The position numbers were made by a program, and so were the translations under genes. A stretch of DNA of 64,000 nt, from assembly GCA_030704615.1 (NCBI GenBank), contig CM060732.1, positions 64,170,001 to 64,234,000 of the forward strand. The letters are read 5' to 3'. The stretch comes from Takakia lepidozioides (lineage: Eukaryota; Plantae; Bryophyta). Below are positions 110 through 30,238 of this stretch, one piece after another. The notes beneath the pieces are model-generated. The model was not told where the DNA came from, did not search any database, and worked only from the letters and a program-made list of their open reading frames with translations. The number at the start of each line of letters is the position of its first letter. The first letter of the stretch is position 1.

Positions 110-1486
110 CTATGCCGCAACCTCTTGAGCAGTACTCCCTGCCTGCTCAGTCAATGACAAAGCCTCATCCTGCCCCATCATCTCATTCTTGAGGACCTCA
201 TCAACCCGAGAAGAATCCCCAACCTCATCCATCACAGCTGCCTTGGTTGCCAACTCCCTCTGAACCTCGAGCACCTCCCACGTGTGCCATGGATGTCTAC
301 ACCCCGTGGTCCTCGCCGGCTTGCCCCCACTAGCTGCCTGTACCGTCTTGGTAGACAGAGAGACCGTCAAGGGAAGTGCACTCCGCACTCTACGTTGCTC
401 AGCCATAGCGAAGCTGATAATCCAGGTCAAGCAATTGAGATCCATTGCTTGCCCCAACACCTGACGACGTGATGCCTCAGAAAGAGAAGGCACCGTCGTG
501 GTCCCAGTGGAAAACCCCATAGCCCGCTCTCGCTCGTCGGCATTAGGCTCCACTAACTGCTGCAACTGATCATCCCACAGGAGGCCAGGTCCACCATCCC
601 GAAAAGCATGGGATCCTGGGAAGCTGAGCAGTGTAGGTAATGCTGCTCGTGGTTGACCCACCCTGTTGACCACTGCCAAAGGCGAACGGTCATCGTGTCT
701 CACACGTTGAGACTGCCTCCCTGTGTCCAAAATATTGTCCACTGTGAGATGTGTTGGCCGCTGCACCCCATCAAATGCACGCTTGAGCAGTGCGGGTGGC
801 ATCAAGTTAGTCCACCATAGCCGTGGATGATGAGCCCGTGATCCCACTGCAGCTGCATCCAGCAGCACTGCTGACCCAAGCCACGACCGGACTTGATGCA
901 CACTGGCCATCACCCTGGCCCGAGAATCGCCCATCAGTGGCACATTCTCCAAGATGTATGCTGGAGATACAGCTTGATGAAGCTGCAAGTGGCGCAAAAT
1001 CCGTACCATCTCCCAAAACAGACCCGTCCTCGAGTCTCGCAATCCATTGTCATGCCCGGCTGATGAATGCCCTTGGCAGGGCCAACCTGCCACTACCAGA
1101 TCAATGGAGCCAACCTGCTCCAAATCCTGCGCCCCCAGCAACGAAATGTCTGCTGGCAAGGCTTGTTGGTATCCACGAACTGCAGACACTGACAACAAAT
1201 CAGGGTACTGTTGTACCAATTGAGCAACATGGCGCAGTGAGACGCATTGTGCAGTCTCATCTTTCTCCACATACAGGTAACGCCTTACCCGCACACCTGC
1301 CTATAGCACAGCAGCCAATCCGGTGCTGATCCCGCCAAACAAGTCCAGAAGGCAAATGTCTTCATCCGGATACTGCCACACAATAGGTGTGGTATCCAAT
1401 GGTGACAACTGAGGTGGTCCTAGTGCAATACCCGCACTCTCCTCCTCTCCTGACGGTACAAAAGCCTCTACCCAGGCTTGTTGCAC
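110..1486 (-). pseudogene. C5-cytosine DNA methyltransferase domain (DNMT3/DNMT6-like) embedded in the retrotransposon polyprotein
   Basis: Motifs in canonical order: I LLDLFGGISTG, II YLYVEKD, IV DLVVAGWPCQGHS (catalytic PC), VI YILENV, VIII RAHHPRLWWTN, IX ERERAMGF, X RRQVLGQAMD. There is an in-frame TAG at 1301-1303. Confidence 0.93.
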
Positions 1487-1501
1487 CCGTTGATCAGCAA
1501 C

Positions 1502-2209
1502 CTACTGCAAATCCTTGCTCGTACCCCACAATGGAGTGTGAGCAACCATGGCAGGCAACTCCGCCATACCATGCATGTCATCCTGCTCTGTTGGAGGTGG
1601 CACATCCTCTGCATGGGCATTGCCTTCCAGCAACTCTCCAGGCCAACTAACTGCAGCTGTAAAGGCGGCTAGTGTTGGCATCTTGCCCCGTTGGGCAGCC
1701 GCAATACCCCCAATGAATGTCACAGGGAGCTGTGCACGACAACCATCCCCTGATTGCCATCCAGGCCTGTAGGATGCTGACTCCTCCCAAAAGTCCAGGA
1801 TGAAGCCCATGGGATATAACACTGCCCCACCAATGAGGACATCATAAGAGACCGCGTCTGTCACAATGGCCTTGGCTCGCATCATTGAGCCATCTATAGG
1901 ATGATCCGGCTGCAGTCTAATGGCCAACTGATGTCATGTCATGCCCCGAGCCGGCTTTGATCCTCCCAGAGATGTTTGTATCTGGAAAGGACAAGGCTTC
2001 ATATCCGCCTCCATGAGGCCCAAACCTGCAATAGCAGCTTTGCCCAACATTACTGGCTGAGCTCCCGAGTCCAACAAGACCCGAAGTGGCCGGTACTTCT
2101 TGCCTGCCGGTCCACTCAATGAGAAAATGCCTCCCTGGTTGTCTAACAAGACAACTCCAGGTGTCACCATGGCACGCTCAAAAGCTGGCCTAGCTGGCAG
2201 CTCCGTCAA
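1502..2209 (-). pseudogene. Retropepsin-like aspartic protease of copy A
   Basis: RVLLDSGAQ active site and YDVLIGGAVL C-terminal motif; in-frame TGA at 1934-1936. Confidence 0.88.
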
Positions 2210-2224
2210 CTTGGCAGCTGCAGC

Positions 2225-4312
2225 TTACCATGACGCAGCCGTGGCAGTCTTGACCCTCAAATCCGAGGATCCCCCTGCCACTACACCTTCTACTAACTCC
2301 GCAGAAGATGAAGTGACCTCCCCACTCTCACAGAGTGTTGCTGCTAGTCTGAACACTCCAGCTGGTCTTACTTCCGGCGTCGCAATCATGGTCGCCGAGA
2401 ACAGTGGGGCTTGATACACAGAGGTGGCTGCCCCCAACAACACCCCGGCTGCGCTAGCCTTGGCAGCAGGTGTCAGTGCTGCACGTGTAGCTCTCCCCAA
2501 TGACATAGTAACCTCCGCCTCGGTAACAGTCGGGCGAGAACTAGGTGCCATGGATGGCGTCGACACTGTCTCCGCCAATGTGAATGACTGAGGAAGCCTC
2601 GCCTGACGGCTTGCCTCCCCACGCTGTGGATCCAATTCCACCTCTGCACCTCGTGGCTCAGGAATTCGTGCTGCTCCTCGAGTCACGGCTGCAGCAGACT
2701 CCACCTGCACTAGTGGTAGTGCTGCTCCGCACATGAATCCCATGCCTCCCATATCTCCTCCCTCAGGAGCAGGAGGCGGACCATCCCGCCTGGGAGCCGG
2801 TACCACCTGAGCTGTAGCCATGGCAGCGAGCCTCTGCTCTAGCTGCTGAAGCCGGTTGGCCATGCCTTGGTCAACACCCTGACCTCCGCGTCCTTGGCCA
2901 TGTTGAGCTTGCCCTTGGCCTGCACCTCGTGCTCGACCACCTCGTCCTCTCTGGGCTGGTCCACCTCGCCCCCGGCCACCATTGTTCCCTTGGAACTGGC
3001 CTGGGCGCAACTCAAGATGCAAGTCATAACACTGGGCATCTCCATGCCCATACTTGCCACAATGCCCACACTGCAACTGTGCAGGCTGTGCTTGTGCCGG
3101 CCTTCTGCCACTCTCTGGGCAATCTTTCTTGACATGGGGTCCTCCACATGTCCAACATACCACCCCTGGTTGCTGTTGGCCTGCAAAAGATGCCACGGGC
3201 CTCTGCACCTGAGGTCCCCTGTAAGCTCCATGGAACTTGGGTTGGGAAACCTTGCCCCTCTGACCACGCTGTTGGGTAGTACCTTGTGCCTGTGGGCTGG
3301 CAGCTGCGCCTCGTGCAGGCATGTCCTTGCCAAATCCAATGGTAACAACCCGCTCCTCCACCATGTTGAGCTCAATCTGCTCAGCCAACAGAAACACATC
3401 TGCTAATGTGGGTTGGGCTGCTTGTAACAGGGTTGCATCTTGCACCCTTCTCTTGAGCTCCTTGTCCAGAATTCCATACCAAAACTGTATTGCCAGAGCT
3501 TCAGTAACCCCTTGGGTCACACTTATCAAGCGCCTCATACGAGTGTACGCCTCTCGTAGGCTCTCACTGGGTTTGCGCTGGAAGTCTTGCAAACTTCGCA
3601 GCTTCTCAGTCCGTACACCTTGGTAGTTCCTCCGCAACTCTTGGAAGAACTCCACCACCGGGTTGAATCTAGGCACATGTGTTGTAGTCGTGGCAGGAGG
3701 AGTAGTAGCACCTTTTGAACTGGTACCACCTGCAGAAGTACCGGCACTACTTGTTCCACTACTAGTGCTGGCAGTGGGAGATATTGGTACTGATGCAGCT
3801 ACTGGTCGCGTCGTGCCTCAAGTAATGGAGACATAGTCAGGTGACCAATACATCCTCCACTCCTCAATCTCTGCGTCATGTCCTCGCATGAACTCGTGGT
3901 AATCGTCCATAGGCAGGCCTTCCAAATGCTGGAACAGTCTCTTCCACGCCATGAATGGGGTGAATAGCTGTGGATTGCGCATCTGCTGCAAATCACACCA
4001 GCTGTCGAACTCCTGGATAAAGTCATCCAACTCGATTGTGCCCACAGCTCCAGAGTACCTACGAGGCCCCTTGGTAGCTCCATACATCTCCTCCATGTCG
4101 TCCCACAACAATGGCGAATGAAACTGCACACCTGTTGATGAAGCCTCCGAATCTATGTCTGACTCTACAGTAGTTGAGGGTGGAGGTGAAGGTGGTCTGA
4201 ACCAAATACCTCGTCTTGTGAACCCACTCTCACTGTTACTACCTGTAGCCGTACTCCCCTCAAAACCCTTGGGTAACTCCGTGATGACACTCACAATGTG
4301 CACCTCCCCCAC
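2225..4312 (-). pseudogene. Gag with two CCHC zinc knuckles (copy A)
   Basis: Capsid-like PRRYSG..LDDFIQEFDSW and LQDFQRKPSESLREAYTRM; knuckles CWTCGGPHVKKDC and CGHCGKYGHGDAQC; RGG-rich tract. One in-frame TGA at 3818-3820; 3677-3817 is open. Confidence 0.88.
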
Positions 4313-7892: not shown

Positions 7893-9033
7893 ACACATTG
7901 TCATCCGAGAGTTGGCTTTGTTCCGACGTTTTGCAGTTGATGTACAGAATTGCAGTAACCCTCTGACTTGGTGGAGGTCTCATGAACTAAAGTTTCCAAC
8001 TATTGGTCATCTGGCTCGGCAGATATTGGGAATTGCTGGCAGCCAAATTGAGACAAAATGAATATTTTCTATTGCTGGAATCCTCACTGCTTTACGTCGT
8101 TGTCGTTTGCAAACAAGCAATCTTGACAAGATGATCTTTGTTGCAAAAAATTGGCCTAATGATCCGAGAGAGGGTTGCAAGAGTTTCAAAGTATTGGCTG
8201 ATATGAAGGAGCTTGAGGATGAATTGGAAGAGCAGCTTGACGAGGAATTTGATGATGAAGTTGAACCAGAGGAATTTCCCGAGGGCGATGAGACTTTCTA
8301 GTGTTGTGCTTCTAGTTTACAATGTTGTTTAGCAATCTATCCATTTATATTAAAATTATATGTGCTGATTGGGTTTTTTTGGCTGCTTTGTCTTGACAAA
8401 AATCTGAAGCAACAAGAAGGGCTCTACAATGAAAATCCTTGCCATGGGATTATGGTAGCTGCCTAGAGTGTGTAGGATATACAAAAATCAGTGTATGTGA
8501 AGAAGGTATTGATGGATGCCGTAATATTTCTTCAAATCATTGAATAACTTACCCTACATAATGAAAAAATCTATATGAAACCAATCTGGTAACTAGGATG
8601 TCCATTATTGATCATCTGGATGATCCAGTTTCAAGGGCTAACCATCTTGCATGGCTGGTCAATCCCTGCTTGGCATTTATTTAAGTTTTTTTTTTTAAAA
8701 AATTCATCATTTCAATATATGTAAATTTTTATTTTATTAATAGTTCATTTACATGACCGCAATATAACCGTTTTAAGGACCGCCGGTTATCTACCGGTTA
8801 TGAAGTATATTGAACTTCCAGAACCGGTTCAAAAAACCACTTGTGCAAAGGTATTTAATAACCGGAATTGAATTTAACCGGGTTTTTTTGAAAACATCAA
8901 AGAACCGCCTCCGGCAGGTTATTTAATTTTTTCTTTTGTCCATTTAACCGCCTCCGGAGGTTCTAAAGAAGGGGCAATTGGCAAAGAACCTACACCGGAG
9001 GAGCTCATGAAACCTGATAACCGCCCAACATTG
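7893..9033 (+). mobile_element. hAT DNA transposon 3' remnant (C-terminal dimerisation domain, subterminal repeats, probable TIR)
   Basis: Frame 7891-8301 reads NPLTWWRSHELKFPTIGHLARQILGIAGSQIETK*IFSIAG..RRCRLQTSNLDKMIFVAKNW. ACCGG/AACCGCC repeats at 8755-9025; terminus ...CCGCCCAACATTG at 9033. Confidence 0.8.
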
Positions 9034-9859: not shown

Positions 9860-12800
9860 TCCACCTGGAAGTGACATGGAAGGTCCATGGTGACATCGTG
9901 AAAGCTGGAATTGTAGGGTTTGTCGTTCTGAACACCGCCCTAGTGGACATGTATGCCAAATGCGGTCGCATTGAAGATGCGAAGGTAGTGTTCGACTGTG
10001 GTTCAACGAGATGTGGTGTCGTGGAGTGCGATGATTGCATTGGCAACAAGGCAAGGATGTATGCATGATTGTGTAGAGGCAGTGATAGCTGAAGGAGCAG
10101 GATAGAGTGTGGGTCCATATTCATCCAAGAGGGTCGGATTTCAAGCTCCAAATTACCTATGGATCCCTGTGAATGATAGCTACAAAAAACCTCCAGGGGT
10201 AGATGGTTAGCTGGAAGCGGCAGCTGTAGCGGCACAGTTGATAAAATCAGGCACCTCAACCATGACCACAACTTCTGGAAGAGGATCAAGCGAGGGAGTC
10301 CACAATGCCTCTTCTGGCACTTATGGGCATGTGAAGATGCTTTATGAGGCAGGCAGACTGAAAGAGGCTCTACAAACTTTAAACCAAAGAGGCATTTCAG
10401 CAGATGTAGATACGTATGTGTGTCTCTTGCATAAGTGCATCAAGATGAAAGGCCTAGAAGTTGGAAAGCAGGTGCACATTCACATTGTCCAAAGTGGATT
10501 CATGCCGAGCGTTTTTCTACTCAACAACCTTGTCAACATGTATGTTAAGGGGAGCATCATGGATGATCACCAAGTGTTCAACACAGAATGCCTCAACGAT
10601 CTTTGATCACGTGGAATATAATGTTGGCAGGATTACCAAGCATGGGCGTGGTACGAATGCTTTGGAGACCTGTGAGCAAATGATGCGCGAAGGGGTGGAG
10701 CCCAACCACATCGCGTTTGTATGTGTTTGAAATGCGTGTGCAAGCCTGGAAAAGGGGAACGAGGTCCATGGTGACATCGGTCAAAGCTGGAATTGCACCG
10801 GATGTCATTCTGAACACTGCCCTGACCTGGACATGTATGCCAAATGTGGATGCATTGGAGGATGCAAAGGGAGTTTTTGACACTATGGCTGAACGAGATG
10901 TGGTGTTGTGGAGTGCGATGCTTGCAGGGTATGCACAACAGGGACGTGGGATGGAGGCTTTGGAGACCTATGATCCAATAATGGGGGAGGGGGTGAAGCC
11001 CGACCACTTTGTGTGCATTTGCAATGTTTGTGCAAGCCTGGCAGCCCTGGACAAGGGTAAAGAGGTGCATGGGGTTATCATCAAAGCTGGAATTGTACCA
11101 AATGTCATTCTAAACACCTCTGGAAAAGGGGAAAGAGGTCCATGGCGACACCTTCAGAGCTGGAATGGTACCAAATGTCAGTATGAACCATACCCCGGTG
11201 GACATGTATGCGAAATGTGGGTGCATCGAGCCTGGACGAGGGCAAAGAGGTGCATGGGGTATCATCAAAGCTGGAATTGTACCAAATGTCATTATGAACA
11301 CTACTCTGGCAGCTCTGGAAAAGGGGAAAGAGGTCCATGGCGACATCTTCAGAGCTGGAATTGTACCAAATGTCATTCTGAACCATACCCTGGTGGACAT
11401 GTTTGCAAAATGTGGGTGCAAAGGGATCTAGGATCTAGGATGCAAAGGGAGTGTTCGACACTATGGCTGAACGAGATGTGGTGTCGTGAAGTGCAATGCT
11501 TGCAAGGTATGCACGGCAGGGACGTGGGATGGAGATTTTGGAGACCTATGAGCAAAGGATGGGGGAAACACATCATGTTTGTGTGCATTTGCAATGCTTG
11601 TGCAAGCCTGGCAGCCCTGGAGAAGGGCAAGAGGTGCATGGGGATATCATCAAAGCTAGAATTGTGCCAAATGTCAATCTGAACACTGCCCTAGCAGCTT
11701 TGGAAAAGGGGAAAGAGGTCCATGGCGACATCTTCAGAGCTGGAATTGTACCAGATGTCATTCTGAACAATACCCTAGTGAACATGTTTGCAAAATGTGG
11801 GTGCATCTAGGATGCAAAGGGAGTGTTCGACACTATGGCTGAACGAGATGTGGTATCGTGGAGTGCGATGCTTGCAGGGTATGCACGGCAAGGACATGGG
11901 ATGGAGGCTTTGGAGAGCTTTGAGCAAATGATGGGGGAATCACATCATGTTTGTGTGCATTTGCAATGCTTGTGCAAGCCTGGCAGCCGGCCTGGAGAAG
12001 GGCAAGAGATGCATGGGGATATCATCAAAGCTGGAATTGTGCCAAATGTCAATCTAAACACTGCCCTGGCAGCTTTGGAAAAGGGGAAAGAGGTCCATGG
12101 TGACATCTTCAGAGTTGGAATTGTACCAGATGTCATTCTGAACAAAACCCTGGTGAACATGTTTGCAAAATGTGGGTGCATCTAGGATGCAAAGGGAGTG
12201 TTCGACACTATGGCTGAACGAGATGTGGTGTGCATTTGCAATGTGCGTGCAAGCCTGGCAGCCCTGGAGAAGGGCAAGAGATGCATGAGGATATCATCAA
12301 AGCTGGAATTGTGCCAAATGTCAATCTGAACACTGCCCTTGCAGCTTTGGAAATGGAGAAAGATGTGCATGGCGACATCTTCAGAGCTGGAATTGTACTA
12401 GATGACATTCTGAACAATACCCTGGTGAACATGTTTGCAAAATGTGGGTGCATCTAGGATTCAAAGGGAGTGTTTGACACTATGGCTGAACGACATGTGG
12501 TGTCGTGGAGTGCGATATGATGTGCTTGCAGGGTATGCACAGCAGGGATGTGGAATGGAGGCTTTGGAGACCTATGAGCAATGGAAGCACATCATGTTTG
12601 TGTGCATTTGCAATGCTTGTGCAAGCCTAGCAGCCGACCTGGAGATGGGCAAAGAGGTGCATGGGGATATCATCAAAGCTGGAATTGTACCAAATGTCAA
12701 TCTGAACACTGCCCCGGCAGCTTTGGAAAAGGGGAAAGAGGTCCACATGGTGACATCTTCAGAGCTGGAATTGTACCAAGGTGAATGCCTGTTAGATTAC

Positions 12801-15800
12801 CAGATGCAAAGAGGTGCATGGTTGCATCGCCAAAGGCAGCAGCTGCAGCGGCACAGTTGATAAAGTCAGGCACCTCAACCATGACCACAACTTCTGGAAG
12901 AGGATCAAGAGAGGGAGTCCACAATGCCTCTTCTGGCACTTAGGCATGTGAAGATGCTTTGGCAGGTAGACTGAAAGAGGCTCTACTGACTTTAAACCAA
13001 GGAGGCATTTCAGCAGATTCAGATACGTATGTCTGTCTCTTGCATAAGTGCATCAAGATGAAAGGCCAAGTGAAGCTAGAAAGCAGGTGCACACTCACAT
13101 TATCCAAAGTGCACGCCAGATATTTTTCTACTCAACACCCTTGTCAACATATATGTTATGTGCGGGAGCATCATGGATGCTCACCAAGTGTTCAACAGAA
13201 TGCCTCAACGATATTTCATCACATGGAACACGATGCTTGCAGGGTGTGCACAACAGGGGCGTGGTATGGAGGCCTTGGAGAATGTGGTGAGGGCACCTTC
13301 TTCTTCGACCTATTTCAGCCTGTTTTTCCCTCTCATCAGACTCGGCCCTGAATTTACATATTGAATCGTCAAGGACAATGTGGTGAGGGCACCTTCTTCT
13401 TCGACCTATTTTAGCCTGTTTTGCCCTCTCATCAGACTCGGCCCTGAGATGTATATTGAATTCTGTAAGTTTTGGGTGGATCTGTGGTGGTTTGGAATGA
13501 CTATGACAAGTAACTGCCGATGTGGCAGCATGAAAGTATCCAAAACAGATAACAGAGATGAGGAGTAGGTGTGGAATGAATACTTTGTTGACCCCAGTGA
13601 ACGGTGGAACAACCGAGGCAAAAAGTTGAATGCCTATTAGATGACAGAGAGTAGCAGACGTAATTCAGCATAGGAACTAGTGTGATTGGGTGTTTCCTAG
13701 GTTGTCATTGTCAGCTGCTAGCAGCAAGGGCAAAGATGAATGCGTGATTTGTGCAGAGGCATGGATAGCTGAAGGAGAAGGGATAGAGTGTGGGTCCAGA
13801 TTCATCCAAGAGGGCCGGACTTCAAGCTCTAGATTACCTGTGATTCCATGTGGATCAATAGCTACAAGAAACCTAAATGGGTACATGGTCAACTAAAGGC
13901 AATAGCTGCAGCGGCACAGTTGATAAAATCAGGCACGTCCTTAACCATGACCGCAGCTTCTGAAAGAGGATCAAGAGAGGGCACAATGCCTTTTCTGCGG
14001 GGCATGTGAAGATGCTTTGTGAGGCAGGCAGACTGACAAAGGCTCTAGGTCTGGAAGCTGGAATCAGATGCACACTCACATTATCCAAAGTGGATTCATG
14101 CCAAATGTTTTTTCTACTCAACACCCTTGTCAACATGTATGTTAAGTGCGGGAGCATCATGGATGCTTGCCAAGATTTCTACAGAATGCCTCAGCGATCT
14201 TTGATCATGTGGAATATAATGTTGGTAGGATTTACCAAACATGGGTGTGGTAGGAATGCTTTGGCGACCTATGAGCAAATGTTGCGCAAAGGGGTGAAGC
14301 CCAACCACATCACGCTTCCGCATGTTTGCAATGCGTGTGCAAGCCTGGGACCTCTGGAAAAGGGGAAAGAGGTCCATGGTGACATCATCAAAGCTAGAAT
14401 TGTACCAGATGTCATCTTGAACACTCCCCTGGTCGACGTCTATGCCAAATGTGGGTGCATTAAGGATGCGAAGGGAGTTTTCAACACTATGGCTGAACCA
14501 AATGTGGTGTCATGGAACGCGATGCTTGCAGGGTATGCACAGCAGGGACATGGTATGCAGGCTTTGGAGACCTATGATCAAATGATGGGGGAAGGGGGGG
14601 CACCTTCTTCAATAGCACAACGGCTACAAGTGGGTAGATGGTCAACTGGAAACAGCAATGGCAGCAGCACAATTGATAGAACAAGGCCCACTGCTAATGA
14701 AGGTACCTTCTTCAACATATTTCACCTTGTTTTCCCCTGCTGTCAGAGTCGTCCCTAAATTTTCATGTTGAATTCTACAAGTTAGCTCATTGGTGGATCT
14801 ATTGTGGTGTTGGAGTGATTTTGACATGTTACTGCCAATGTGGTTGACAGGAAAGTATCGAAAAACAGATAATAGAGATGTGGAGAAGCTCTGGAATGAA
14901 TACGGTTCTGACCCTAGTCAATGGTGGAACAATCCAGGCAAAAAGGTGAATGCCTGTTGGAAACAGATGCAAGTCAGCATAGGAACTAGTGTGATAAGTA
15001 GGGTTGGGGTGTTTGCTGGAACAATTCTAGAGTGTTATTGTCAGCTGCTAGCATCAAGGCAAGGATGTATGCATGATCTGTTCAGAGGCATGGATGGCTG
15101 ACGGAGTAGGGAGCAGTGTGGGTCTAGATTCATCCAAGAGGGCCGGATTTCAAGCTCCAGATCGCCTACAATTCCCTGTGGAAGCAGCACACACCTCGCA
15201 CACACAAGAGGTCCTCTTGGGTGCATGGTCAGTCAAATCCTCCATGGGTCATGACACAAGGTCGAGGACAATGTGGTGAGGGCACCTTCTTCTTCGACCT
15301 ATTTCAGCCTATTTTTCCCTCTCATCAGACCCAGCCCTGAATTTGCATATTGAATGCTGTAAGTTAGCTCATTGGGTGGATGTGGGGTGGTTTGGAGTGA
15401 CTTTGACAAGTTACTGCTGATGTGGCAGCAGGAAAATACCCAAAAATAGATAACAAGATGAAGAGAAGCTTTGGGATGAACACTTTCCGACCCCATTCAG
15501 TGGGGGGACAATGGAGAGAAAAAGGTGAGTGCTTGTTCGACTGCAGAGAGAAGCAGTTGCAATTCAAAATTGGAACTACTGTTAAGTCCTAGGTTGGGGT
15601 ATTTTTCTGGAAGAACTTCACGCCGTCATTGTCAGCTGCTAGCAGCAAGGTTGAGGGATGTATTCATGATCTGTACACGGGCAGGGATAGCTGAGGGACC
15701 AGGGATAGAGGTCCATATTCATGTTCAGGTGCAGGCTGAGGGATCAATAGCTAAAAGAAATCAGCTGCAGTAGATGGTCAATTGTTGCAAGTGCAAACAG

Positions 15801-16140
15801 TAGCGGTAGCACAATTGATAGAATGAGGTGTTGCACCTTCCTCAACACATTTCAGCCTGTTTTTCCAAATAGGGTTGGGGTGTAAGAACAAATCTAGGCT
15901 GTCATCATCAGCTGCTAGCAGCAAGACAATGATATATGCATGATTTGTGCTGAGGCATAGATAGTTGAAGGAGCAGGGATAGAGTGTGGGTGCAGATTCA
16001 CCCAAGAGGGCCGGGTTTCAAGCTCCAGATTGACGCTATAGCTACAACAAACCTGCAGATGGTCAACTGGCAGCAGCGGCACAATTTATAAAATCAGACA
16101 CTGCTAATGAAGGCATCTTATTCAACACATTTCACCTATT
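9860..16140 (+). pseudogene. Tandem array of decayed PLS-class PPR repeats interleaved with OSB-type PDF-motif exons
   Basis: Repeated ALEKGKEVHGDI.KAGIVPNV.LNTLV.MYAKCG.I.DAKGVFDTMAERDVVSW..MLAGYAQQG units with many stops and frameshifts. The block 10215-10600 recurs at ~12830-13240 and ~13900-14250. PDF exons at 10119, 13550, 13800, 14860, 15128, 15450 and 15996. Confidence 0.88.
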
Positions 16141-16599
16141 TTGTTTGGGTTTGAAACTTTGCATGCGTGTACGTTGCGCACAAACATGTAATTATTGAAT
16201 GACATATTTGATGAAGGTTGTTGTTTGCATTTCGCTTATAATGAGTTGTATGGTTGCAAGGACACATTATAATATATGTCCCTATGTTCATTTGTTCGTA
16301 TTAGGACTTTGTCCATCATTTCCCGGTCCTTTCTCTTGGCACCCCATCCGAAAACAACCCAAGTACTTCAGGCGGGAATCGTGGGCAAGACGCCGCCCCC
16401 ACGGTACCGGATGATGATGATGATGACAGTGACAGTGATAGTGACAGCAACAATGAGCATGGAATTAACCAGGAGGATGTGCAAGCCATGGAGGATCTCT
16501 TAATGCATCATGTGGGCGCTGATGCATCCTATGAAGAGGGAACCCGACCAATCGATGATCCTGAAATGGCCCCTTCAAATGACATGGAGAGGGAGGCGA

Positions 16600-17905
16600 G
16601 AACCCCTTGTACGAAGGAGCGAAAATGAGTCGACTTTCAACAATCTTACTTTTGCTCAATCTTCAAATTGGATTTGGTATAAGTAATGTTGGGATGTCTG
16701 CCATAATGCGAACTATTGCAGACTATATCCTTGCTCCACACTTGAAACCCAAGATGCCACGGTCGCGGAAAGAGGCCCGCAAAGTCTTGGACTCTGTGGG
16801 GATGGGCTATAAGATTTTTCATGCATGTCCATGTGATAAAACCCTATACTACGGAGAGGATTCGCGTCTCACCAAGTGCCCAGAGTGCAAGAAAGACCGA
16901 TATTGGGATGATGTCCAAGGGAAAAAAGTACCACGCAAGGTATGAGCGTCATTCCCCCTCGCATGGAGATTACTTTCTTTAATCTTCTCAATGCATGTAA
17001 AGTGTATTCCACAAAGTTTAGGGTTTAGAGAGTAGTACTCATGCAAGATCTGATTGTGGTTTTGGAAGGAGTGAGGGAGGAGTGGAAGGAGCGACGTTTG
17101 GTTTTGACCATTCACGCCCAAATGAGGGAGAGGTTGCATAAAGGGAAAGACATAAGGGTGTTGTATTATGTGTGCTAATGGGATCATGATTACATGTGGG
17201 GGGCGTGGGGTATTTCATCCTAGAAAATGCATTACTTTCCGATCATCCCGCGATTGAGGGCACAGTACCGAAGCCCCGAATTGGCCAGACTCATGAGATG
17301 ACATGTCTCGCATCGGAGCCCCCCGGGATAGGTGTGCGGGCCACAAGATTCACAAGCATGGAGGCATATTGAAGAGATGTGGCCTTTTCTTTTGGAGGAC
17401 CCACGACATGTCCACCTCGGCTTCTCCTCGGATGGGGTCAACCAATTATCTGTCCAGTCATGTAGTCATTCCACTTGACCGGTGACCATGGTGAATTACA
17501 ACATCCCTCCGTATCTTTCAATTAAAAAAGACCATATCATGTTGGCTGCCATTGTGTCAGGTGAGTGTACTCATTTCATGTTTATTATTGCCTTGGACTT
17601 TACATTAAACTTCTGATTTCTGACGCAATTTGGATGCAAGATTGATGAGTGACATAATCATGGAGTAACACGTGTAATTCATTTTGTAGTATAATTTGCA
17701 TATTGGTGGAGCATTGAAATAATGATGTGAATGTCTTATATGGAAAAAACAAGTGGCAAACATGGACACGTACTTGCAACCTCTTGTTGATGAACTTAAG
17801 GAGCTATGGAGGGGGGTCCCGGCATTGGATGCTTCACTTGACCCTATGGCCGGGCAATCTTTTCAGATGAGAGACATCTTGCTTTGGACAATGCATGATT
17901 ATCCA
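16600..17905 (+). pseudogene. CACTA transposase (Transposase_21-type) 5' exons
   Basis: ORF 16607-16945, exon ~17230-17560 (YFPIIPRL..DSQAWRHI..NYNIPP) with in-frame stops, and exon ~17740-17905; GT donors after ...RK, ...VSG and ...DYPG. Confidence 0.8.
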
Positions 17906-17920
17906 GGTATATTATGTTCC

Positions 17921-19018
17921 TGTTAGAGGACTGTAGGGGACTTAGACACTTATACGGGATCTGTAGGGTACCCTTAATTTTTGCACAGACTGAGACAAAC
18001 AGGAACCTTAGGGGTGACAGCAGCGCACTGTAGAGGGGGGTTACATAGCCCACACAGCCGACACAGCAGTCACAGCCCACACAGCCAACACAGCCCGTCA
18101 CAGTCGTCACAGCCCACACAGCCCACACAGCCGTCACAGCCCACACAGCCCACACAGCCTGTCACAGTCGTCACAGCCCACACAGCCCACACAGCCCGTC
18201 ACAGTCGTCACAGCCCACACAACCCACACAGCCGTCACAGCCCGTCACAGTCGTCACAGCCCACACAGCCCACACAGCCCGTCACAGTCGTCACAGCAGA
18301 CACAGCCCACACAGCCAGTCACAGCCCGGCACAGCCACACAGCCAGTCACAGCCTGACACAGCCAAACACAGCCAGTCACCGCTTGACACAGCTGTCACG
18401 ATAATAGGGAACGAAGAGTAGGACAGGGAACGACTGTGGGGAACAACACCTGTGAAGGGAACATGTTAATTCACATACGACGGTTAGAGAGGGAAACGGT
18501 TAGAACCGCGGATAGGAGGATAAAGGGAGAAACGGGGAATGAAGAAGGGATTATGATTCGGGGGAGGAGGATTTCGGAGAGAGACGGGAGCGGAAGTCGG
18601 TGAGCACGATGAAGGAGGAAAGAGGATTAGTAGATGCTTGTTATATGCAAAGCTGTAGGGATATTGTAGAGGAGAATAGAGACACAATGGCTTCGGCCTG
18701 ATACCTGATAAATCATAATCTGATACTTATACGATACAATCACAATGTGTAGAGAGATCTGAGTGAAGCTGTGGATTGAATGGAGGAGTGAAGGAAACCG
18801 ATAAATTGATGAAGCAAACTGATACTTAATTATCAATGGTAAGGTAGCTAAGATGAATGCGGAAAAGGAAACAAATAGGAAACACCCCCATGATACACTA
18901 GCTGTAGGTCATGACTGATTGTTCTGCGCGGGCTGAGTACTTAGAGATTTCCAACTCTTCTATCTTGGAGTTTCCGCCTCGGATAGCGAAGGGATGGGTG
19001 AGTAAAAGCCGCGCGACA
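17921..19018 (+). repeat. 5' LTR (1098 bp)
   Basis: TGTTAG...GCGACA; by eye identical to the 3' LTR apart from the internal repeat array and a 1-bp indel. Confidence 0.97.
18047..18400. repeat. LTR-internal tandem array of 9-10 bp CACAGCC(CA/GT) units (shorter copy at 30383-30663)
   Basis: Seen directly. Confidence 0.92.
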
Positions 19019-19606
19019 TTTGGCGACCATACTGGGGACCTGGGACATGAACAACCAGATGTGACAGGCATTTGGTGGGATCATGGTGGTTGGACCATTA
19101 AAGAATTTGAAGTGAATCAAATTCCCTGTGGAACGAAGGAAGAAAGATTGTCCAAACAATTCTTTCAAAGGTTCTTGGAATTGCCAGACGGATGTAAAGA
19201 AAATATTCTTAAACGAGTGCATGATGCTGATCCAGAATGGGGTCTGGAGAAAGGAGTGATAAAGATTTATCAGGTAGCCTGTAGAGGAAGAGCACGTTGG
19301 TTACCAACATTAGTTTATGTGATAGCGTTGCTATCCATTAAACGAGTAGAGTTTGAAGGCTGGGAAGAAAGAAAGGTGAATGTTTATACTCATATGCATG
19401 AAGAGCTTGTACTGGTAAAGAATTGGATTCCAAAGGATATTTTGTGGATCAAACTCACACCAAGAACAGTTTTTCAGACTTGTTTGCCATATGGTTATAT
19501 GGTAACGGAGACTTCAAGTATAGCCAAGGGTGCATTGAAGCTTGAAAGAAATCCAGGCATATACGAGAGATATTACAGAAGAGAGTTTTGGTTATTGCCA
19601 CATTAA
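18911..19606 (+). CDS. 231-aa extra ORF upstream of gag (starts in the LTR, crosses the PBS); unknown function
   Basis: Open frame ending 21 nt before the gag ATG; no domain recognised. Confidence 0.5.
   Translation: MTDCSARAEYLEISNSSILEFPPRIAKGWVSKSRATFGDHTGDLGHEQPDVTGIWWDHGGWTIKEFEVNQIPCGTKEERLSKQFFQRFLELPDGCKENILKRVHDADPEWGLEKGVIKIYQVACRGRARWLPTLVYVIALLSIKRVEFEGWEERKVNVYTHMHEELVLVKNWIPKDILWIKLTPRTVFQTCLPYGYMVTETSSIAKGALKLERNPGIYERYYRREFWLLPH
19021..19038 (+). promoter_or_regulatory. Primer binding site, probably tRNA-Arg(ACG)
   Basis: TGGCGACCATACTGGGGA, 2 nt after the 5' LTR; resembles the plant tRNA-Arg PBS TGGCGACTCCACTGGGGA. Confidence 0.8.
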
Positions 19607-19627
19607 AAGAAATGAAAGACATGGGAC

Positions 19628-22600
19628 ATGAGTGATGAAAGAGAAGCTAGACGACAAAGATATTCATCAAAAAGAGAAAGCTATCTGAAAGCTAATTATC
19701 CATATCTTTGGGAGAGAGGAATAGACATAGGGGAATCATCTAGACCTCTCACACCATCAAGATCAAAAAGTGCATCACCTATACCGGAAGAACTAGAGTT
19801 GGATGCCACTCCTTCTGTTTCTTTGCAAGAAAGATTAAGGGAATTGGTACAGGAAGAAGATCAATCACGAGGTGAAAGATCTGAGGTACATCCTTGGATA
19901 AAAGACTTGACAGAAATCTTTGATAAGAGTTGGCATGGAACACCAAAAGCAGGAACTCCAGTTTCTGAAGCAGAAGATGAAGAAGGAGATGAGGATGTGG
20001 CAGAGCCAACGGAGAGTTCAGACTCTCCAACACCATTACAGTTGAGTTACATGAGTGAAGAAGAAACCCAAGGGCAGAACTTGGAGGATGAAAACAGAGA
20101 GAAGAAATTAGAAGAGGAAGAATATGAAGAAGTAGACCCAACAGCTGAGGTTGAGACTACAACCAGGACATCCCAACCCGTTGGACCTGGATCAAGTGGA
20201 GCACTTGGATCACAGGCCAACGAAGGTGTCGGCTCAGGGGGATCAGGCGGGCTGCCTGGATCTGGCTCTGGGGGGACAGGGAGTGTGGGAAGTAGTGCAA
20301 CTGAAGCTGGGAATACTGTGAATATCGTGGGACCAGAAGCAAGGAGTGTTCAAGGGCCACCACTTGGTGGAAGATCCACCACAAAAACAACAGGTCCAGA
20401 AGGACCAGCACCAGCAAGGGTGCCAGCACCTGTCAGTGGGCAGAAGGTAGGGCCACAGATGGCGTTACAACCAACACGGGCAAAACCACCCTTTCCAATA
20501 TATTCAGGAAAAGGGGATCCCGATGTACACATTAGCCAATTTGAGCACATGTGTATAGTGAACAATGAGAATGGCGATGATGCCAAGATGAGACTGTTTC
20601 CTTGTTCACTTATCAAGAAAGCAAGTGAATGGTATGCAAGATTCCCTGATAATCATTTCCTAACCTGGAATGGCTTGAATACAGCATTTCGAAATAGGTT
20701 CAGGACAAGTAAAACTGAGGATGAAGTGTATGGAAGTTTACAACAGCTGAAGCAGAAGAAGCATGAAACTGTTGAAGAGTATATGGAGAAGATGGAATTG
20801 ATGATGAAAAAGCTGGCTGCAGTACCAGCACCCGGTTTACAGAAGACTTGGTTTGTGAGTGGACTAAGACCAGAGTTGCAGAAGAAAGTGGATATGTTAC
20901 CCCATAATACAGTGGAGGAGGCATTTGAAACTGCAAATAGAATTGAGCAATTGGGAATGCTCAGGAGAGAGAAAAAGGAAGATGAGGACTCTGAAGATGA
21001 GTCAGATGAAGAAGAAGAGCAAGAACTAAAAAGAAAGAGTAAGAGAAAGGAAAAGTTGAAGAGGGATAACTATGAGAAAAGATTGGAAGAAATCTTGAAG
21101 AAGTATGCCACAGAGGCTGCAACACATTGGAGGAAGGGTGTATGGTGTGCAAAGTGCCAGAATGAAGGCCATACCACTACAGAATGCCACATGAAGGAGA
21201 AACACTGTACTATCTGTAAAATGGATAACCATTCTACTGAGAATTGTTACTACAACAGAAGGACAGCTGCAAGAGAACCTAGGCAAGTGAGGGTGCATCA
21301 GGTGCAGCCCCAGCCAAGAAGAAGCAATGATCAGGACCACTATGGTAGGTCTGGTGGTTATAACAATGGCATGGAAGGGAGAGGTAATTCAAGAGGGAAT
21401 TACCAAGGAAATTCCAGAGGCAACTATCAGGGTAATCCAAGGGGGAATTACCAGCCCGGGAATCAGGATTATAGAAATAATCCAAGAACAGACCAAGGGC
21501 GAGGACCCAATGGTGAAGAGTTATGTTACTATTGTAATCAGCCAGGACATCGCAAGGCAGCCTGTTCATTCTGGATAAGACACCAGAATGAGATGAGAGC
21601 TCCTGTGAATGAGGGCCCAGTGGTGGCAGCTCACATGGTTAGGCCATGTGTTGTACCAGAAGTAAGTACAATGATAGTAACAAGAAGTAAAGCCAAACTA
21701 ATACCTCCAGTAGAAGAGGAAGAAGATGAGACTGGAAGTGGCAATGATATGCCTGAAGATGAAGAGACTTGGAAAGATGAGAAGGAACTGCACAAGGAAG
21801 TGGCAGATACTATAAGGGAAATGCAAAAGAGTACGGATATTCCTGTGGCAGATTCCTCTGATTCGGATGGAGAAAAAGAGGGGAGTGAGGAAGAAAGGAA
21901 AAAAGAAGATGCAGACATGCAAAGTAATGAAGAGACTTTGGCTGAAGTAATATGTCAGACCAAAGCAGAAATTACCATTGGACAGCTATTAGCTGTGGCA
22001 CCTTATTGTAGGCACAGGCTGTATCAGGCAATCAATCGAATTGCCCAAGAGACAGGAAACACAGACCTGAACAGCAAGGTGACCAGTTATAATGTGAAGC
22101 CGGAAGGGCGAGAACCAGTCATGGACTTTGATGATTCTATGCCAGTAATCCAATTGAGAATTGGAAGCACAGAACTAACTGATGTACTGATAGATGGTGG
22201 TTCTGGAGTAAATATCATGACAGACCAATTAAGGAAGAAGCTTGGTCTAAGTAACATGAAACCAGCCCCATTTACAGTAACAATGGCAGATCAAAGAAGT
22301 GTACAGCCATTGGGATTAATAAGAGGAGTTAAGATACAGATACAGAAAATGATCTTTATGATCACAGTAACTGTATTAAAAATGGATGAAGTCATGGAGG
22401 CTTACTCCTTATTATTGGGACGTCCGTGGCTGAAACAGGCCAGGGTATTCCATGACTGGAATTCTCAGTTACTAACTGTGCATAATGGGATGCACGAGAT
22501 ACAAATTACCACAAAGAAATCTAGTAGATTACCTGCTACAAGAAGACCTCGAGGAGTCAGAGAGTATGACTGGAGGGGAGGACTGGATGAGGAGCAGGAA

Positions 22601-22768
22601 GCTACCCTATTTGCTGCACACCCAGAATGGGAGCAGGTTGCAGAGATGCGGCTGGAAAGCCTAAGTTGTTTGAGAGGTATCTGCTGTGGTGTAGTGACAG
22701 CAACACCAACTGAAGAGAAACCAGCATTTACCCATCACATTTCTATGAAGAAAGAGAAGGAGAAATAG
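19628..22768 (+). CDS. Gag-protease polyprotein (1046 aa)
   Basis: FPIYSGKGDPDVHISQF capsid, LKQKKHETVEEY, three CCHC knuckles (CAKCQNEGHTTTEC, CTICKMDNHSTENC, CYYCNQPGHRKAAC), VLIDGGSGVN protease, YSLLLGRPWL. Confidence 0.95.
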   Translation: MSDEREARRQRYSSKRESYLKANYPYLWERGIDIGESSRPLTPSRSKSASPIPEELELDATPSVSLQERLRELVQEEDQSRGERSEVHPWIKDLTEIFDKSWHGTPKAGTPVSEAEDEEGDEDVAEPTESSDSPTPLQLSYMSEEETQGQNLEDENREKKLEEEEYEEVDPTAEVETTTRTSQPVGPGSSGALGSQANEGVGSGGSGGLPGSGSGGTGSVGSSATEAGNTVNIVGPEARSVQGPPLGGRSTTKTTGPEGPAPARVPAPVSGQKVGPQMALQPTRAKPPFPIYSGKGDPDVHISQFEHMCIVNNENGDDAKMRLFPCSLIKKASEWYARFPDNHFLTWNGLNTAFRNRFRTSKTEDEVYGSLQQLKQKKHETVEEYMEKMELMMKKLAAVPAPGLQKTWFVSGLRPELQKKVDMLPHNTVEEAFETANRIEQLGMLRREKKEDEDSEDESDEEEEQELKRKSKRKEKLKRDNYEKRLEEILKKYATEAATHWRKGVWCAKCQNEGHTTTECHMKEKHCTICKMDNHSTENCYYNRRTAAREPRQVRVHQVQPQPRRSNDQDHYGRSGGYNNGMEGRGNSRGNYQGNSRGNYQGNPRGNYQPGNQDYRNNPRTDQGRGPNGEELCYYCNQPGHRKAACSFWIRHQNEMRAPVNEGPVVAAHMVRPCVVPEVSTMIVTRSKAKLIPPVEEEEDETGSGNDMPEDEETWKDEKELHKEVADTIREMQKSTDIPVADSSDSDGEKEGSEEERKKEDADMQSNEETLAEVICQTKAEITIGQLLAVAPYCRHRLYQAINRIAQETGNTDLNSKVTSYNVKPEGREPVMDFDDSMPVIQLRIGSTELTDVLIDGGSGVNIMTDQLRKKLGLSNMKPAPFTVTMADQRSVQPLGLIRGVKIQIQKMIFMITVTVLKMDEVMEAYSLLLGRPWLKQARVFHDWNSQLLTVHNGMHEIQITTKKSSRLPATRRPRGVREYDWRGGLDEEQEATLFAAHPEWEQVAEMRLESLSCLRGICCGVVTATPTEEKPAFTHHISMKKEKEK

Positions 22769-22791
22769 AAATCCTAGAAGAACCAGCCACT

Positions 22792-25700
22792 GTGAGCTTA
22801 CAGGATGAAGTGGTGACCGGTTGGACAATCACAGCTGATGAGCAGGTGCGAGAAGTAAATGTGGGAACTCAGGAGGAACCGAGGATGGTGAAAGTAGGAG
22901 CTGATTTGGAGCCGGAATTCTTCGAAGAAGCAAAAAGCTTGTTCATCAAATACAGAGATGTATTTGCTTGGAGCTATGAGGATCTAAAATGGATACCACC
23001 TGAAGTCTGTCAGCATAAAATTGAACTGGAACCAGGGTCAGTACCAATCAAGCAGGCGAGGTATAGAATGAATCCCAACTACGCACAGAAGGTTGGAGAA
23101 GAGATAAAGAAGTTGGCTGAGGCTAAGTTTATATACCCAATAGAATATACAACTTGGTTGTCACCCATTGTTATAGTTCCCAAGAAGAATGGCAAACTAA
23201 GAGTATGTGTGAACTATAAGAAGCTGAATGCTTGTACGAAGAAAGATCCTTTCCCTTTGCCATTCACAGAAGCAGTATTAGACACTGTGGCAGGCCATGA
23301 GATGTACTCATTCATGGATGGCTTCAGTGGTTATAATCAAGTGCAAGTGGCAGAAGAAGACCAAGGGAAAACAGCTTTCATCACAGACTGGGGGGCTTAT
23401 GCATACAAAGTCATGCCCTTTGGACTTTGTAATGCACCAGCGACCTTTCAGAGAGTGATAAGTGAATCTTTTCATGAGTATCTGGATGATTTCATGCAGG
23501 TATTCTTGGATGATTTCAGTGTGTACAGCTCTAAGAATGAGCACTTGCATAAATTGGAGTTATGCCTGGCCAGATCCAGGATGAGAGGTCTGGGCTTGAA
23601 TCCAGAGAAGTGTACTTTCTGTGTGAACTCATGGGTGCTTCTGGGACACATAGTGTGTAAGAAGGGACTTCTTGTGGATCCCAGGAAGACAGAGTCCATT
23701 AAAGTCTCTCCACCACCAGTGAATGTTAAGAGTTTAAGGAGATTCCTTGGGCAAACCAGTTATTACAGAAGATTTGTCAAAAGGTATGCACAAATAGCAG
23801 CACCATTGAGCAAGCTTCTGAAGAAAGATGCAGTGTTTGCATGGACAGCTGAATGTCAACAGGCGTTTGAGGAACTTACACTGTCAGTAACAACTACACC
23901 TGTGCTGATTAACCCTCACTGGCATGTAGTATTTCATGTTCACTGCGATGCATCAGGAGAAGCGTTGGGAGCGGTGTTAGCCCAGAATGTTACAGGGAAT
24001 ATAGATTCACCTGTGTACTATGCTAGCCGGTTGATGAACAGTGCTGAGAGGAACTATAGCACAACGGAAAGAGAAGCATTGGCAATGATCTATGCAGTGA
24101 AGAAATTCAGGCATTACCTATTGGGAAGAAAGTTTATGTTTTATGTGGATCACCAGGCTCTGATATATCTGGTGAACAAACCTTTGATAAGTGGAAGGAT
24201 AGCGAGGTGGTTAATAATCTTGCATGAGTTTGAGTTCGAGGTTGTTTACAAGCCTGGCCGTTTGCATCTTGTGGCAGATCATTTGTCACGACTAACAACA
24301 GGAGAGGCCGCCACAGGAGTGGACGATCAGTTACCTGATGCGAGTTTATTTGTAATGGAGGTGCAAGGAAGTGCAGATGAATGGTTAGATTGGCAGTGGC
24401 CAATCAGATACTACCTTGCTCATGGTCAGTGCCCACCTAGTTATGGTAAGGAGCAGAGGAAGAGAATCGCTATCAAAGCTTTACCTTATACTATGGTAGG
24501 AAGCAGAATGTATAAGTTAGGACCTGATGGAGTACTAAAACGATGCTTGTACCACCATGAAGTAAATAAAGTCTTGGAGGAAGTTCATAAAGGAGTGGCT
24601 GGAGGTCATTTTGGAGAAGAGACTACCAGTAGAAAGATACTACTCGCAGGATACTGGTGGCCTACTTTGTTCAAAGATGTACATGAGTATTGTCAGAAGT
24701 GTGATGAATGTCAGAGGCTAGGACCTTTGCAGAGATCTGGAAGAATGGCCTTGCATCCTACAATGCCTACGGAACCATTTCAGAAATGGGGACTAGACTT
24801 TGTTGGACCAATTAGTCCACCATCCAAGAATACACAAAACAGGTACATAATTACAGCCACTGATTATACTACAAAGTGGGTGGAAGCTAAAGCTTTGAGG
24901 GACAACACAGCCAAGTCCACAGCAAGGTTCCTGTACGAGAACATACTTACACGATTTGGATGTCCCTTAGAATTTATCAGTGATCAAGGAAGTCACTTCA
25001 TGAATGAGACCATTGAGTTATTGACTAAAGAGTTTATGATTGTGCATAGAAAGAGTACAACATATTACCCACAGGGTAATGGACAGGCAGAGGCTACCAA
25101 CAAAATACTATGTACTATCTTGGCTAAGATAGTCAATGCAAACAGAACGGATTGGGATACAAAGCTGCTGACAGCTTTATGGTCATACAGGACTTCGTAT
25201 AAAGTCACCACAAAGTATACACCATTCCAATTAGTTTATGGTATGGAAGCCTTACTTCCAGTGGAATTCCTGTTACCTACCATGAGAACGGAGTGGGGAA
25301 AAAGAATGGAATTGCAAGACTCCATCAAGGTCAGGAAACATGAATTATACCATGTGGAAGAAATACGTGCTGATGCAGCTGATAATATGACCAGAATTCA
25401 GATGAAGAGAAAGGAACAGTTTGATGAAGGCAAGTTAAAGACTTTTAAGACGGGGGATTTGGTTCTATGGTTGCAAAAGAAAGGAAAGATTCAAGCTTCT
25501 AAGCTTAAATCACCATGGAAAGGACCTTATGTCATACAAAAGATGTATGATAACAACACAGCCATGTTACAAACCATTAACAAAGAAATGCTGGGAAGAG
25601 TCAATGCAAATAAGTTGAAGGGGTACAGTGGTATCCATGACAAACCCCTGCAGCATGATTTGCATGTTGAACCGCAAGAGCAGTCACGGGCTGCACCAGT

Positions 25701-30217: not shown

Positions 30218-30238
30218 ACCGTGAGGACACGGCTTTTT

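What the first reader, a model, noticed from the sequence alone, without database searches (positions are those of the whole stretch)
10119..16100. Fossil gene fusing OSB-type PDF ssDNA-binding motifs to a PLS-PPR tract
Seen: exon A (..EKLWNEY.SDPSQWWNN.GKK|GT; ~14860-14945, also ~13550 and ~15450) and exon B (AG|IHPRGPDFKL*ITCDSMWINSYKKPKWVHGQL at 13800; also 10119, 15128, 15996). They splice in phase 0 into a full LW..DP..WW.NR..K..P..PDFK..LW...P.WV motif, the PDF motif of organellar ssDNA-binding OSB proteins. At 10181-10606 the end of exon B is in frame with a linker and MLYEAGRLKEAL..PPR. Inference: the ancestor had one or several PDF repeats ahead of an editing-type PPR array, so it could bind both ssDNA and specific RNA. 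That might couple organellar RNA editing to nucleoids or R-loops.
Basis: partly seen in the sequence, partly recalled or inferred. Interest (0 to 1): 0.7.

Follow-up and report, generated by a model that had tools for sequence, protein, structure and literature searches.

The report
Dead cluster of PDF-PPR fusion genes
This is a scrambled, broken cluster of copies of a plant gene in which the short single-strand-binding "PDF" motif of organellar OSB proteins sits in front of RNA-editing-type PPR repeats; intact relatives occur in a moss, a clubmoss and ferns, and the motif likely gives these editing factors an extra grip on single-stranded nucleic acid, a pairing that my paper searches did not find described.

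Summary
Window 9.8-16.1 kb is a jumble of broken tandem copies. Exons A and B, joined at their phase-0 splice sites, score 67 and 44.5 bits on a PDF profile (shuffles at most 10.3). Three copies run from exon B through a linker into PLS-PPR repeats. None has an open frame, and no E or DYW remnant is present.

The fusion is real. Intact PDF-PLS(-E-DYW) proteins occur in Diphasiastrum, Adiantum and Pteridium. In 33 of 49 fetched moss-like loci the PDF shares an ORF with PPR repeats; most carry the same intron, three have spliced cDNA-like contigs, and dN/dS is 0.10-0.20.

New here: the window's PDF exons resemble an OSB gene's own last two exons more than other PDF-PPR genes, suggesting a second capture, though trees do not reject a single origin. 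Many paralogues are transcribed in this species, but the RNA seen often keeps the intron, so the fused protein is not shown. DNA binding and R-loop coupling are untested.

The scan noted this fusion five times before on other genomes. My paper searches found no description.

The parts
9860..10040 (+). PLS-PPR fragment, joined directly to the 3' part of the PDF intron
10119..10222 (+). PDF exon B, copy 1: acceptor mutated to AT, frameshift near 10170, TAG at 10208
10223..10345 (+). Ala/Ser/Thr/Gly-rich linker, in frame with the PPR start; bridged to the PPR start by RNA contigs of other copies
   Evidence: table 8 records 1-2
10346..12800 (+). Broken PLS-PPR array with nested internal duplications (about 84-nt and 270-385-nt spacings); no E or DYW
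   Evidence: Pfam PPR; repeats
12816..13280 (+). Second exon-B end + linker + PPR start (linker 96% identical to copy 1), broken
13296..13531 (+). Intron upstream of exon A, with its 5' part duplicated
   Evidence: (D8)
13532..13625 (+). PDF exon A, copy 1: both splice sites mutated, 1-nt deletion near 13541, TAG at 13566; other transcribed copies read WWDNR here
   Evidence: (13541, 13602, 13608)
13626..13799 (+). Phase-0 intron inside the PDF motif, same position as in OSB genes and other PDF-PPR genes; G-rich, 25% T
13800..14018 (+). PDF exon B, best copy (one TAG at 13830), running into the linker; frameshift before the PPR start
   Evidence: 76% DNA identity to OSB exon
14021..14600 (+). 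PLS-PPR fragment (Pfam PPR_2 87 bits)
14628..14702 (+). Exon-B end of the internal type, ending at a phase-1 GT donor: evidence for tandem PDF units
14703..14850 (+). Phase-1 GT..AG intron upstream of exon A
14851..14945 (+). PDF exon A, copy 2: open frame, AG and GT intact, 95 nt against 98 nt in the OSB gene, same phases
14946..15127 (+). Phase-0 GT..AG intron inside the PDF motif; bridged into exon B by an RNA contig of another copy
   Evidence: table 8 record 7
15128..15182 (+). 5' half of PDF exon B, copy 3
15199..15285 (+). 3' half of a second kind of PDF motif (NPPWV type), frameshifted, ending near a GC donor-like site
   Evidence: 13.9 bits; loose ends at 15198/15199 translate by eye to a PDY-R-H-K variant
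15432..15830 (+). PDF exon A copy 3 (two frameshifts), its intron and a decayed exon-B end
15867..16112 (+). 3' part of the PDF intron and exon B copy 4 (internal deletion), ending at a phase-1 GC donor-like site

Best explanation
The region is a dead, rearranged tandem cluster of a gene family whose intact members likely encode an organelle-imported PLS-PPR editing factor with one or more N-terminal OSB-derived PDF motifs, which would act as a weak, sequence-independent grip on single strands next to the PPR binding site. SHOWN: the cluster is broken; the motif is a PDF motif; the exon B-linker-PPR junction recurs three times and is bridged in RNA of other copies; intact PDF-PLS-E-DYW genes exist in other seed-free plants and keep the motif under purifying selection. 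INFERRED (about 0.65): this lineage got its PDF by copying the last two exons of an OSB gene, introns included, in front of a PPR exon, separately from the older 'MAPGT' fusion of moss and clubmoss; the cassette was then multiplied at DNA level. INFERRED (about 0.4): PPR arrays read RNA 5' to 3' from their N-terminus, so the PDF sits at the 5' flank of the target and most likely holds that flank single-stranded and raises occupancy, as a built-in helper domain. This locus itself makes no protein.
For: PDF identity. Intact fusions: P0093 PDF-PLS-E-DYW, P0092 and P0053 PDF-PLS-E (Diphasiastrum), P0027 (Adiantum), P0049 (Pteridium transcriptome protein), P0010 with 3 PDFs (unnamed). Of 49 metagenome loci, 33 have the PDF or its 3' half in one ORF with PPR repeats, about 10 gene groups; 6 loci in 2 groups end in DYW. 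16 of 17 loci examined have a GT..AG intron at the window's position. L009, L010 and L012 are intron-free contigs 99-100% identical to exons of L035, L032/L033 and L034/L046. Leaders rich in Arg/Ser/Ala precede the PDF in L011, L012 and L015 (no targeting predictor run). dN/dS in the PDF core is 0.17 against 0.27 in the first 100 PPR codons, 0.20 without the codons fixed by the search pattern and 0.10 in exon A. OSB origin: best match is OSB P0004 (35 of 59 identical, score 202) against 27 of 57 (156) for the best PPR-linked motif. blastn hits only OSB loci L001-L008, at 71-76%, and none of the other 41 loci. Exon A has the same length class and phases as in OSB. Paralogues in this species: runs X1 and X2 are RNA (three spliced joints, 0-2 differences on most long pieces); 7161 and 4083 contigs lay on the cluster, under a tenth at 99% or more; they mostly carry WWDNR and lack five of this copy's frameshifts. 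PDF binds ssDNA (PMC6963530, PMC6451138, passages); PPR 5'-3' orientation (PMC13041630, passages).
Against: No intact protein or DNA of the window's own subfamily was found. No A-to-B splice joint is among the 15 of 344 joints displayed, while contigs do run from exon A into the intron and from the intron into exon B. No displayed contig spans PDFK to the PPR start. The subfamily has lost conserved His/Lys after PDFK in all four B copies. AU tests do not reject one origin for all PPR-linked PDFs (p 0.25-0.65), and the tree holding the window with the MAPGT group had a higher likelihood than the quick free tree (only 63 columns). The fetched loci were found through PDF similarity, which biases dN/dS down, and the pairs are not independent. 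OSB1/2 prefer ssDNA over RNA (PMC4166229, passages), which argues against an RNA ligand. No E/DYW in the cluster.
Confidence: 0.7

Rival explanations
1. Nucleoid tether: the PDF binds ssDNA at transcription bubbles or R-loops and concentrates the editing factor on nascent RNA.
For: The only measured PDF ligand preference is ssDNA over dsDNA and RNA (PMC4166229, PMC6451138, passages). The motif is conserved in fusions. Tandem PDFs, as in the window, P0010, P0027 and P0092, mirror OSBs, where an extra PDF was linked to a longer binding site (PMC6451138, passage).
Against: No localisation or binding data. A single PDF without the OSB tetramer may bind weakly (inference). A paper search on PPR, ssDNA, nucleoid, R-loop and editing gave 2 papers, neither on such a link by title or abstract start.
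Confidence: 0.3
2. In this lineage the PDF is a vestige: the captured OSB exons ride along at the 5' end, the intron is usually kept, and translation starts in the linker or at the first PPR motif, giving ordinary PLS proteins.
For: Intron-retaining contigs and no displayed A-to-B joint. The intron is T-poor (25-26%) with a purine-rich acceptor region. Conserved His/Lys are lost. Copy-to-copy dN/dS is 0.48 on about 32 changes. In-frame ATGs lie in the linker.
Against: The OSB intron itself has only 26-31% T. Transcribed paralogues keep WWDNR and the frame of exon A. dN/dS against the OSB gene is 0.13, though near saturation. Only 15 of 344 joints were visible, and contigs drop variants.
Confidence: 0.3
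3. Structural cap: the PDF is kept as a small folded N-terminal cap that stabilises the first PPR repeat rather than binding nucleic acid.
For: In the MAPGT family the PDF sits at a fixed short distance from the first repeat (alignment).
Against: In the window, P0093 and P0010 a long flexible linker separates PDF and PPR. The basic and aromatic residues invariant in OSBs are kept in the fusions.
Confidence: 0.12
4. Local accident: OSB fragments and PPR fragments were thrown together at this locus, or inside a transposon, and no such gene ever existed.
For: The cluster is heavily rearranged and flanked by transposon remains.
Against: The same in-frame junction occurs three times, diverged paralogues in RNA bridge linker and PPR start, and the architecture is intact elsewhere. 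No terminal repeats enclose the cluster.
Confidence: 0.05

Closest known systems
[quoted passage not shown]
   Same: PDF motif, single or tandem; same two-exon coding and splice phases as the OSB genes L002-L008; closest sequence match is an OSB.
   Different: No OB/SSB fold (tblastn with a full OSB hits only the PDF part); the PDF is N-terminal to PPR repeats instead of C-terminal; His/Lys after PDFK are replaced.
PLS-class PPR RNA-editing factors (PLS-E-DYW)
   Same: P-L-S repeats; the array start is 48% identical to P0093 over 85 residues; relatives with PDF end in E or DYW.
   Different: Extra N-terminal PDF motif(s) and introns in the 5' part; no E/DYW left at this locus; pseudogene.
PPR proteins with added nucleic-acid-binding domains (RRM-PPR, MORF-PPR fusions; PMC13386178)
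   Same: A helper domain is fused to the PPR array.
   Different: That survey's main text has no mention of OSB or PDF (passages); the added domain here comes from organellar DNA metabolism.
'MAPGT'-type PDF-PLS-E/DYW genes of moss and clubmoss (P0033 cluster with Sphagnum proteins, P0053, P0092, L010-L046); not named in any paper I found
   Same: PDF ahead of PLS repeats; same intron inside the PDF.
   Different: They have a short fixed spacer; the window has a long Ala/Ser/Gly linker, internal tandem PDF units and an OSB-like motif; no blastn similarity to them.

Membership tests
PDF motif (OSB type) | About 50-residue motif with W..F..P..WWDNR..K.....PDFK.K......LW......P.WV pattern | tested here: met
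   67.0 and 44.5 bits against shuffles <=10.3; of 25 positions conserved in >=60% of 53 database motifs, the best copy keeps 15 and departs at 10, including W16, D18, N25, H33, K34; W16 and D18 are canonical in transcribed paralogues
OSB protein | OB/SSB-like fold upstream of the PDF | tested here: not met
   tblastn with full OSB P0088 hits only the PDF exons in the window
OSB protein | PDF motif(s) at the C-terminus | tested here: not met
   Exon B continues into linker and PPR repeats
OSB protein | ssDNA binding by the PDF | not testable with these tools
   Known for AtOSB1 (PMC6963530 passage); no assay here
PLS-class PPR | PPR repeats in P-L-S triplets | tested here: met
   Pfam PPR above cut-off at 13964-14755 and 11811-12182; PLS pattern by alignment to P0093 and by eye
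PPR-E/DYW editing deaminase | C-terminal E and DYW domains | tested here: not met
   None in 9.8-16.2 kb; met in relatives L011, L020, P0093
PPR-E/DYW editing deaminase | Organelle transit peptide | tested here: inconclusive
   The 5' end is missing from the cluster; relatives have Arg/Ser/Ala-rich leaders by composition only
Functional gene | Open reading frame with intact splice sites | tested here: not met
   78-84 stops per frame over 6.4 kb; every junction copy broken
Transposon-captured (Pack-type) gene fragment | Terminal inverted repeats enclosing the fragments | tested here: not met
   No 5' end matching the CACTA-like 3' end at 34795; no enclosing inverted repeat in 7.4-18 kb; Helitron ends not tested

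The most novel reading that the evidence does not exclude
Seed-free land plants repeatedly grafted the ssDNA-binding PDF motif of OSB proteins onto PLS-DYW deaminases, this lineage by a fresh capture and tandem multiplication of OSB exons, and the fusions work on DNA-associated single strands: they edit nascent RNA at the nucleoid, or even deaminate displaced organellar ssDNA at PPR-specified sites (designer PPRs bind ssDNA by the same code, PMC13041630 passages), which would link editing factors to gain and loss of editing sites in the organelle genome.
Probability: 0.15. Interest if true: 0.88.

Novelty: new variant of a known kind. Interest (0 to 1): 0.6.

Why it matters
PDF motifs are described as parts of OSB proteins, and PLS-DYW proteins as RNA factors. 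A conserved PDF on editing factors in a moss, a clubmoss and ferns means a common N-terminal domain has been missed, probably because it had no Pfam match here. It offers a testable answer to how editing factors in these plants gain affinity or reach their targets, and a possible physical link between organellar DNA maintenance and RNA editing. It could also be a useful add-on for designer PPR editors. This locus adds a likely second origin, which would point to selection for the combination. The locus itself is a pseudogene cluster and matters only as a record.

Tried and rejected
No whole genome is held, so copy number and intact paralogues could not be counted.

Word-based protein searches with the read-through of exon A, intron and exon B found nothing at 253-2000 aa (46 candidates) or 79-252 aa (1 candidate). 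A 24-nt exon-B pattern had 0 matches in metagenome contigs. These are weak negatives.

Pfam has no hit on the PDF pieces. PHROGs gave nothing on 6 of 7 proteins. No solved structure covers the PDF columns. The ESM Atlas gave no usable hit for exon A and only PPR clusters under 0.9 for P0093 135-290.

No RNA holder was listed as RNA on record; I tested the two guessed runs by laying them. My first reading, that they were DNA skims showing a high-copy repeat, was wrong: one search shows spliced joints. Summed contig depth is not used as copy number or expression level.

No structure model was obtained (the machine was busy), so PDF-PPR packing and fold relatives are untested. One tree run timed out and was repeated with 24 of 55 rows; OSB_P0016_1 was dropped as a long branch. 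L046 failed my motif pattern. Transposon capture was looked for and not found.

Paper searches for the fusion; none listed a paper describing it. Zaegel 2006 (PMC1785405) is not held, subscription journals are not searched, and I read no supplements; domain tables in the supplements of PMC13386178 or PMC13393729 could list such proteins.

Full report
WHAT IS THERE. Window 9.8-16.1 kb has 78-84 stops in each plus-strand frame and is built from a few modules copied over and over: exon A, an intron, exon B, a linker, PLS-PPR repeats, and a second intron upstream of exon A. Exon A occurs three times, the start of exon B four times, and the exon B-linker-PPR junction three times (10119-10350, 12816-12960, 13800-14020). 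Each copy is broken at different places. No E or DYW remnant is present. Transposon remains flank the cluster, but no terminal repeats enclose it.

IS IT A PDF MOTIF? Yes. A profile made only from the window's exon pieces returned 53 proteins from 1.84 billion. 49 of these 53 plus two later hits (55 in all) yielded 103 full PDF cores; the rest are half-motif fragments or a variant by eye. 12 of 53 carry Pfam SSB and so are OSB-type; 3 of 53 carry PPR. On an HMM of the database cores, the window's exons joined at their splice sites score 67.0 and 44.5 bits, against at most 10.3 for 1000 shuffles each. The test is mildly circular. The window's motif departs from the family at His33 and Lys34, which read Leu and Gln (the stop in the 13800 copy falls on that Gln codon).

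IS THE FUSION REAL? Yes, as a family. Named proteins: Diphasiastrum P0093 (PDF-PLS-E-DYW, 1123 aa), P0092 and P0053 (PDF-PLS-E), Adiantum P0027, Pteridium P0049, and a cluster with Sphagnum proteins. A scan of metagenome contigs with the closest OSB fetched 49 loci. 33 have the PDF or its 3' half in one ORF with PPR repeats, 6 have PPR within 1 kb in another ORF, 9 have none by my HMM (8 OSB loci and one short cDNA-like contig), and 1 has no PDF. The 33 fall into about 10 gene groups; two groups end in DYW. In 16 of 17 loci examined a GT..AG intron sits at exactly the window's phase-0 site, in OSB and PDF-PPR genes alike. Three intron-free contigs match the exons of genomic PDF-PPR loci at 99-100%, so these genes are transcribed and spliced. 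The PDF core in these fusions has dN/dS 0.17, against 0.27 for the following PPR codons, and 0.20 or 0.10 when the search-pattern codons are left out. Ascertainment by PDF similarity and non-independent pairs weaken these numbers but do not explain exon A.

WHERE DID THIS PDF COME FROM? Most likely straight from an OSB gene. The best match is the OSB P0004 (35 of 59 identical) against 27 of 57 for any PPR-linked motif. At DNA level the exons hit only OSB loci, at 71-76%. Exon A is 95 nt against 98 nt in the OSB gene and starts in phase 1 inside a Gly codon in both. Trees place the window with these OSBs (SH-aLRT 92 and 88). But the motif is only 63 columns: AU tests do not reject grouping with the MAPGT family or with all PPR-linked PDFs (p 0.25-0.65), and one constrained tree beat the quick free tree. 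A separate capture is therefore likely, not shown. Two exon-B ends stop at a phase-1 donor (14702, about 16112), which fits tandem PDF units. A half motif of another type at 15199-15285 suggests the parent gene carried two kinds of PDF.

IS THE SUBFAMILY ALIVE IN THIS SPECIES? Unresolved. Runs X1 and X2 are RNA of this or a nearly identical species: a control stretch shows three spliced joints and long pieces with 0-3 differences in 15 of 16 pieces. On the cluster, 7161 and 4083 contigs lay at 85% or more, only 562 and 330 at 99% or more, so many paralogues are transcribed; short conserved PPR words also attract other PPR genes, as on the control gene. Nearly all depth at 13602 and 13608 shows the letters that give WWDNR, and the common indels at 10632, 10779, 10825, 13541 and 14687 fall where this copy is out of step with its sisters. 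Contigs with 26-37 differences bridge linker and PPR start. Against a spliced product: contigs run from exon A into the intron (X2 record 14; X1 record 8) and from the intron into exon B (X1 record 7), and no A-to-B joint is among the 15 of 344 joints displayed. No protein of this subfamily is in the databases searched.

HOW IT MOST LIKELY WORKS. Known: the PDF carries ssDNA binding in OSBs (PMC6963530, PMC6451138), OSB1/2 prefer ssDNA to RNA (PMC4166229), and PPR arrays read 5' to 3' from the N-terminus and can bind ssDNA by the same code with lower affinity (PMC13041630); all seen as passages. Inferred: an N-terminal PDF lies at the 5' flank of the target and gives a weak, sequence-independent grip. 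I put holding the RNA flank at about 0.4, tethering to nucleoid ssDNA at about 0.3, a structural cap at about 0.12, and DNA deamination lower. Separately, there is about a 0.3 chance that in this lineage the PDF is no longer translated.

WHAT IS KNOWN. Eight paper searches listed no description of PDF-PPR proteins. The 2026 OSB survey has no occurrence of PPR in its main text (PMC13393729, passages). The 2026 survey of editing factors has none of OSB or PDF (PMC13386178, passages and section 6); it ascribes PPR expansion mainly to retroposition with intron loss, whereas this cluster kept its introns. PMC12733224 was seen as passages. Supplements were not read. Five earlier notes of this scan report the same fusion on other genomes; I used them as leads and tested the claim with my own calls. 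Their liverwort case I did not see.

VERDICT. A pseudogene cluster that records a real, conserved and apparently undescribed domain combination, with signs of a second OSB-exon capture. New variant of a known kind; interest 0.6.

Noticed in passing
window 16305-34795: CACTA-type element (Pfam Transposase_21, DUF4218) with a TAGTG end at 34795 and subterminal repeats; its 5' end was not found. It begins just right of the cluster and may have cut off the E/DYW end.
   Followed up: partly
window 17921-31284: Gypsy-type LTR retrotransposon nested in the CACTA element; LTRs 92% identical; gag and pol ORFs; an extra 1301-aa ORF at 26312-30217 has no Pfam hit.
   Followed up: no
window 50623-53604 (-): Intact PLS-E-E+-DYW gene; RNA contigs identical to it are present. 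No PDF motif found ahead of it.
   Followed up: partly
window 110-3800 and 35300-37900 (-): Two related (68%) retroelement-like stretches carrying a C-5 cytosine methylase domain.
   Followed up: no
window 15199-15285: Half of a second PDF type; RNA loose ends there read as a PDY variant by eye, so the parent gene may carry two different PDF motifs.
   Followed up: partly
proteins P0013, P0025, P0014, P0038, P0043, P0050: PDF motifs outside land plants: multi-PDF proteins in the dinoflagellates Cladocopium and Yihiella, in the alga Sanguina, and in short unnamed metagenome proteins that look prokaryotic or phage-like by eye. PMC4166229 calls the motif conserved only in green plants.
   Followed up: partly
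L011:3746-6361: Intronless PDF-PLS-E-DYW ORF (872 aa stop to stop) among relatives that carry the PDF intron; may be a retrocopy and is a convenient test protein.
   Followed up: partly
window about 7900-8300 and 60762-63940: A hAT-like C-terminal remnant and MULE/SWIM-like ORFs; both labels are recalled from motifs, and Pfam gave no hit on the latter.
   Followed up: no
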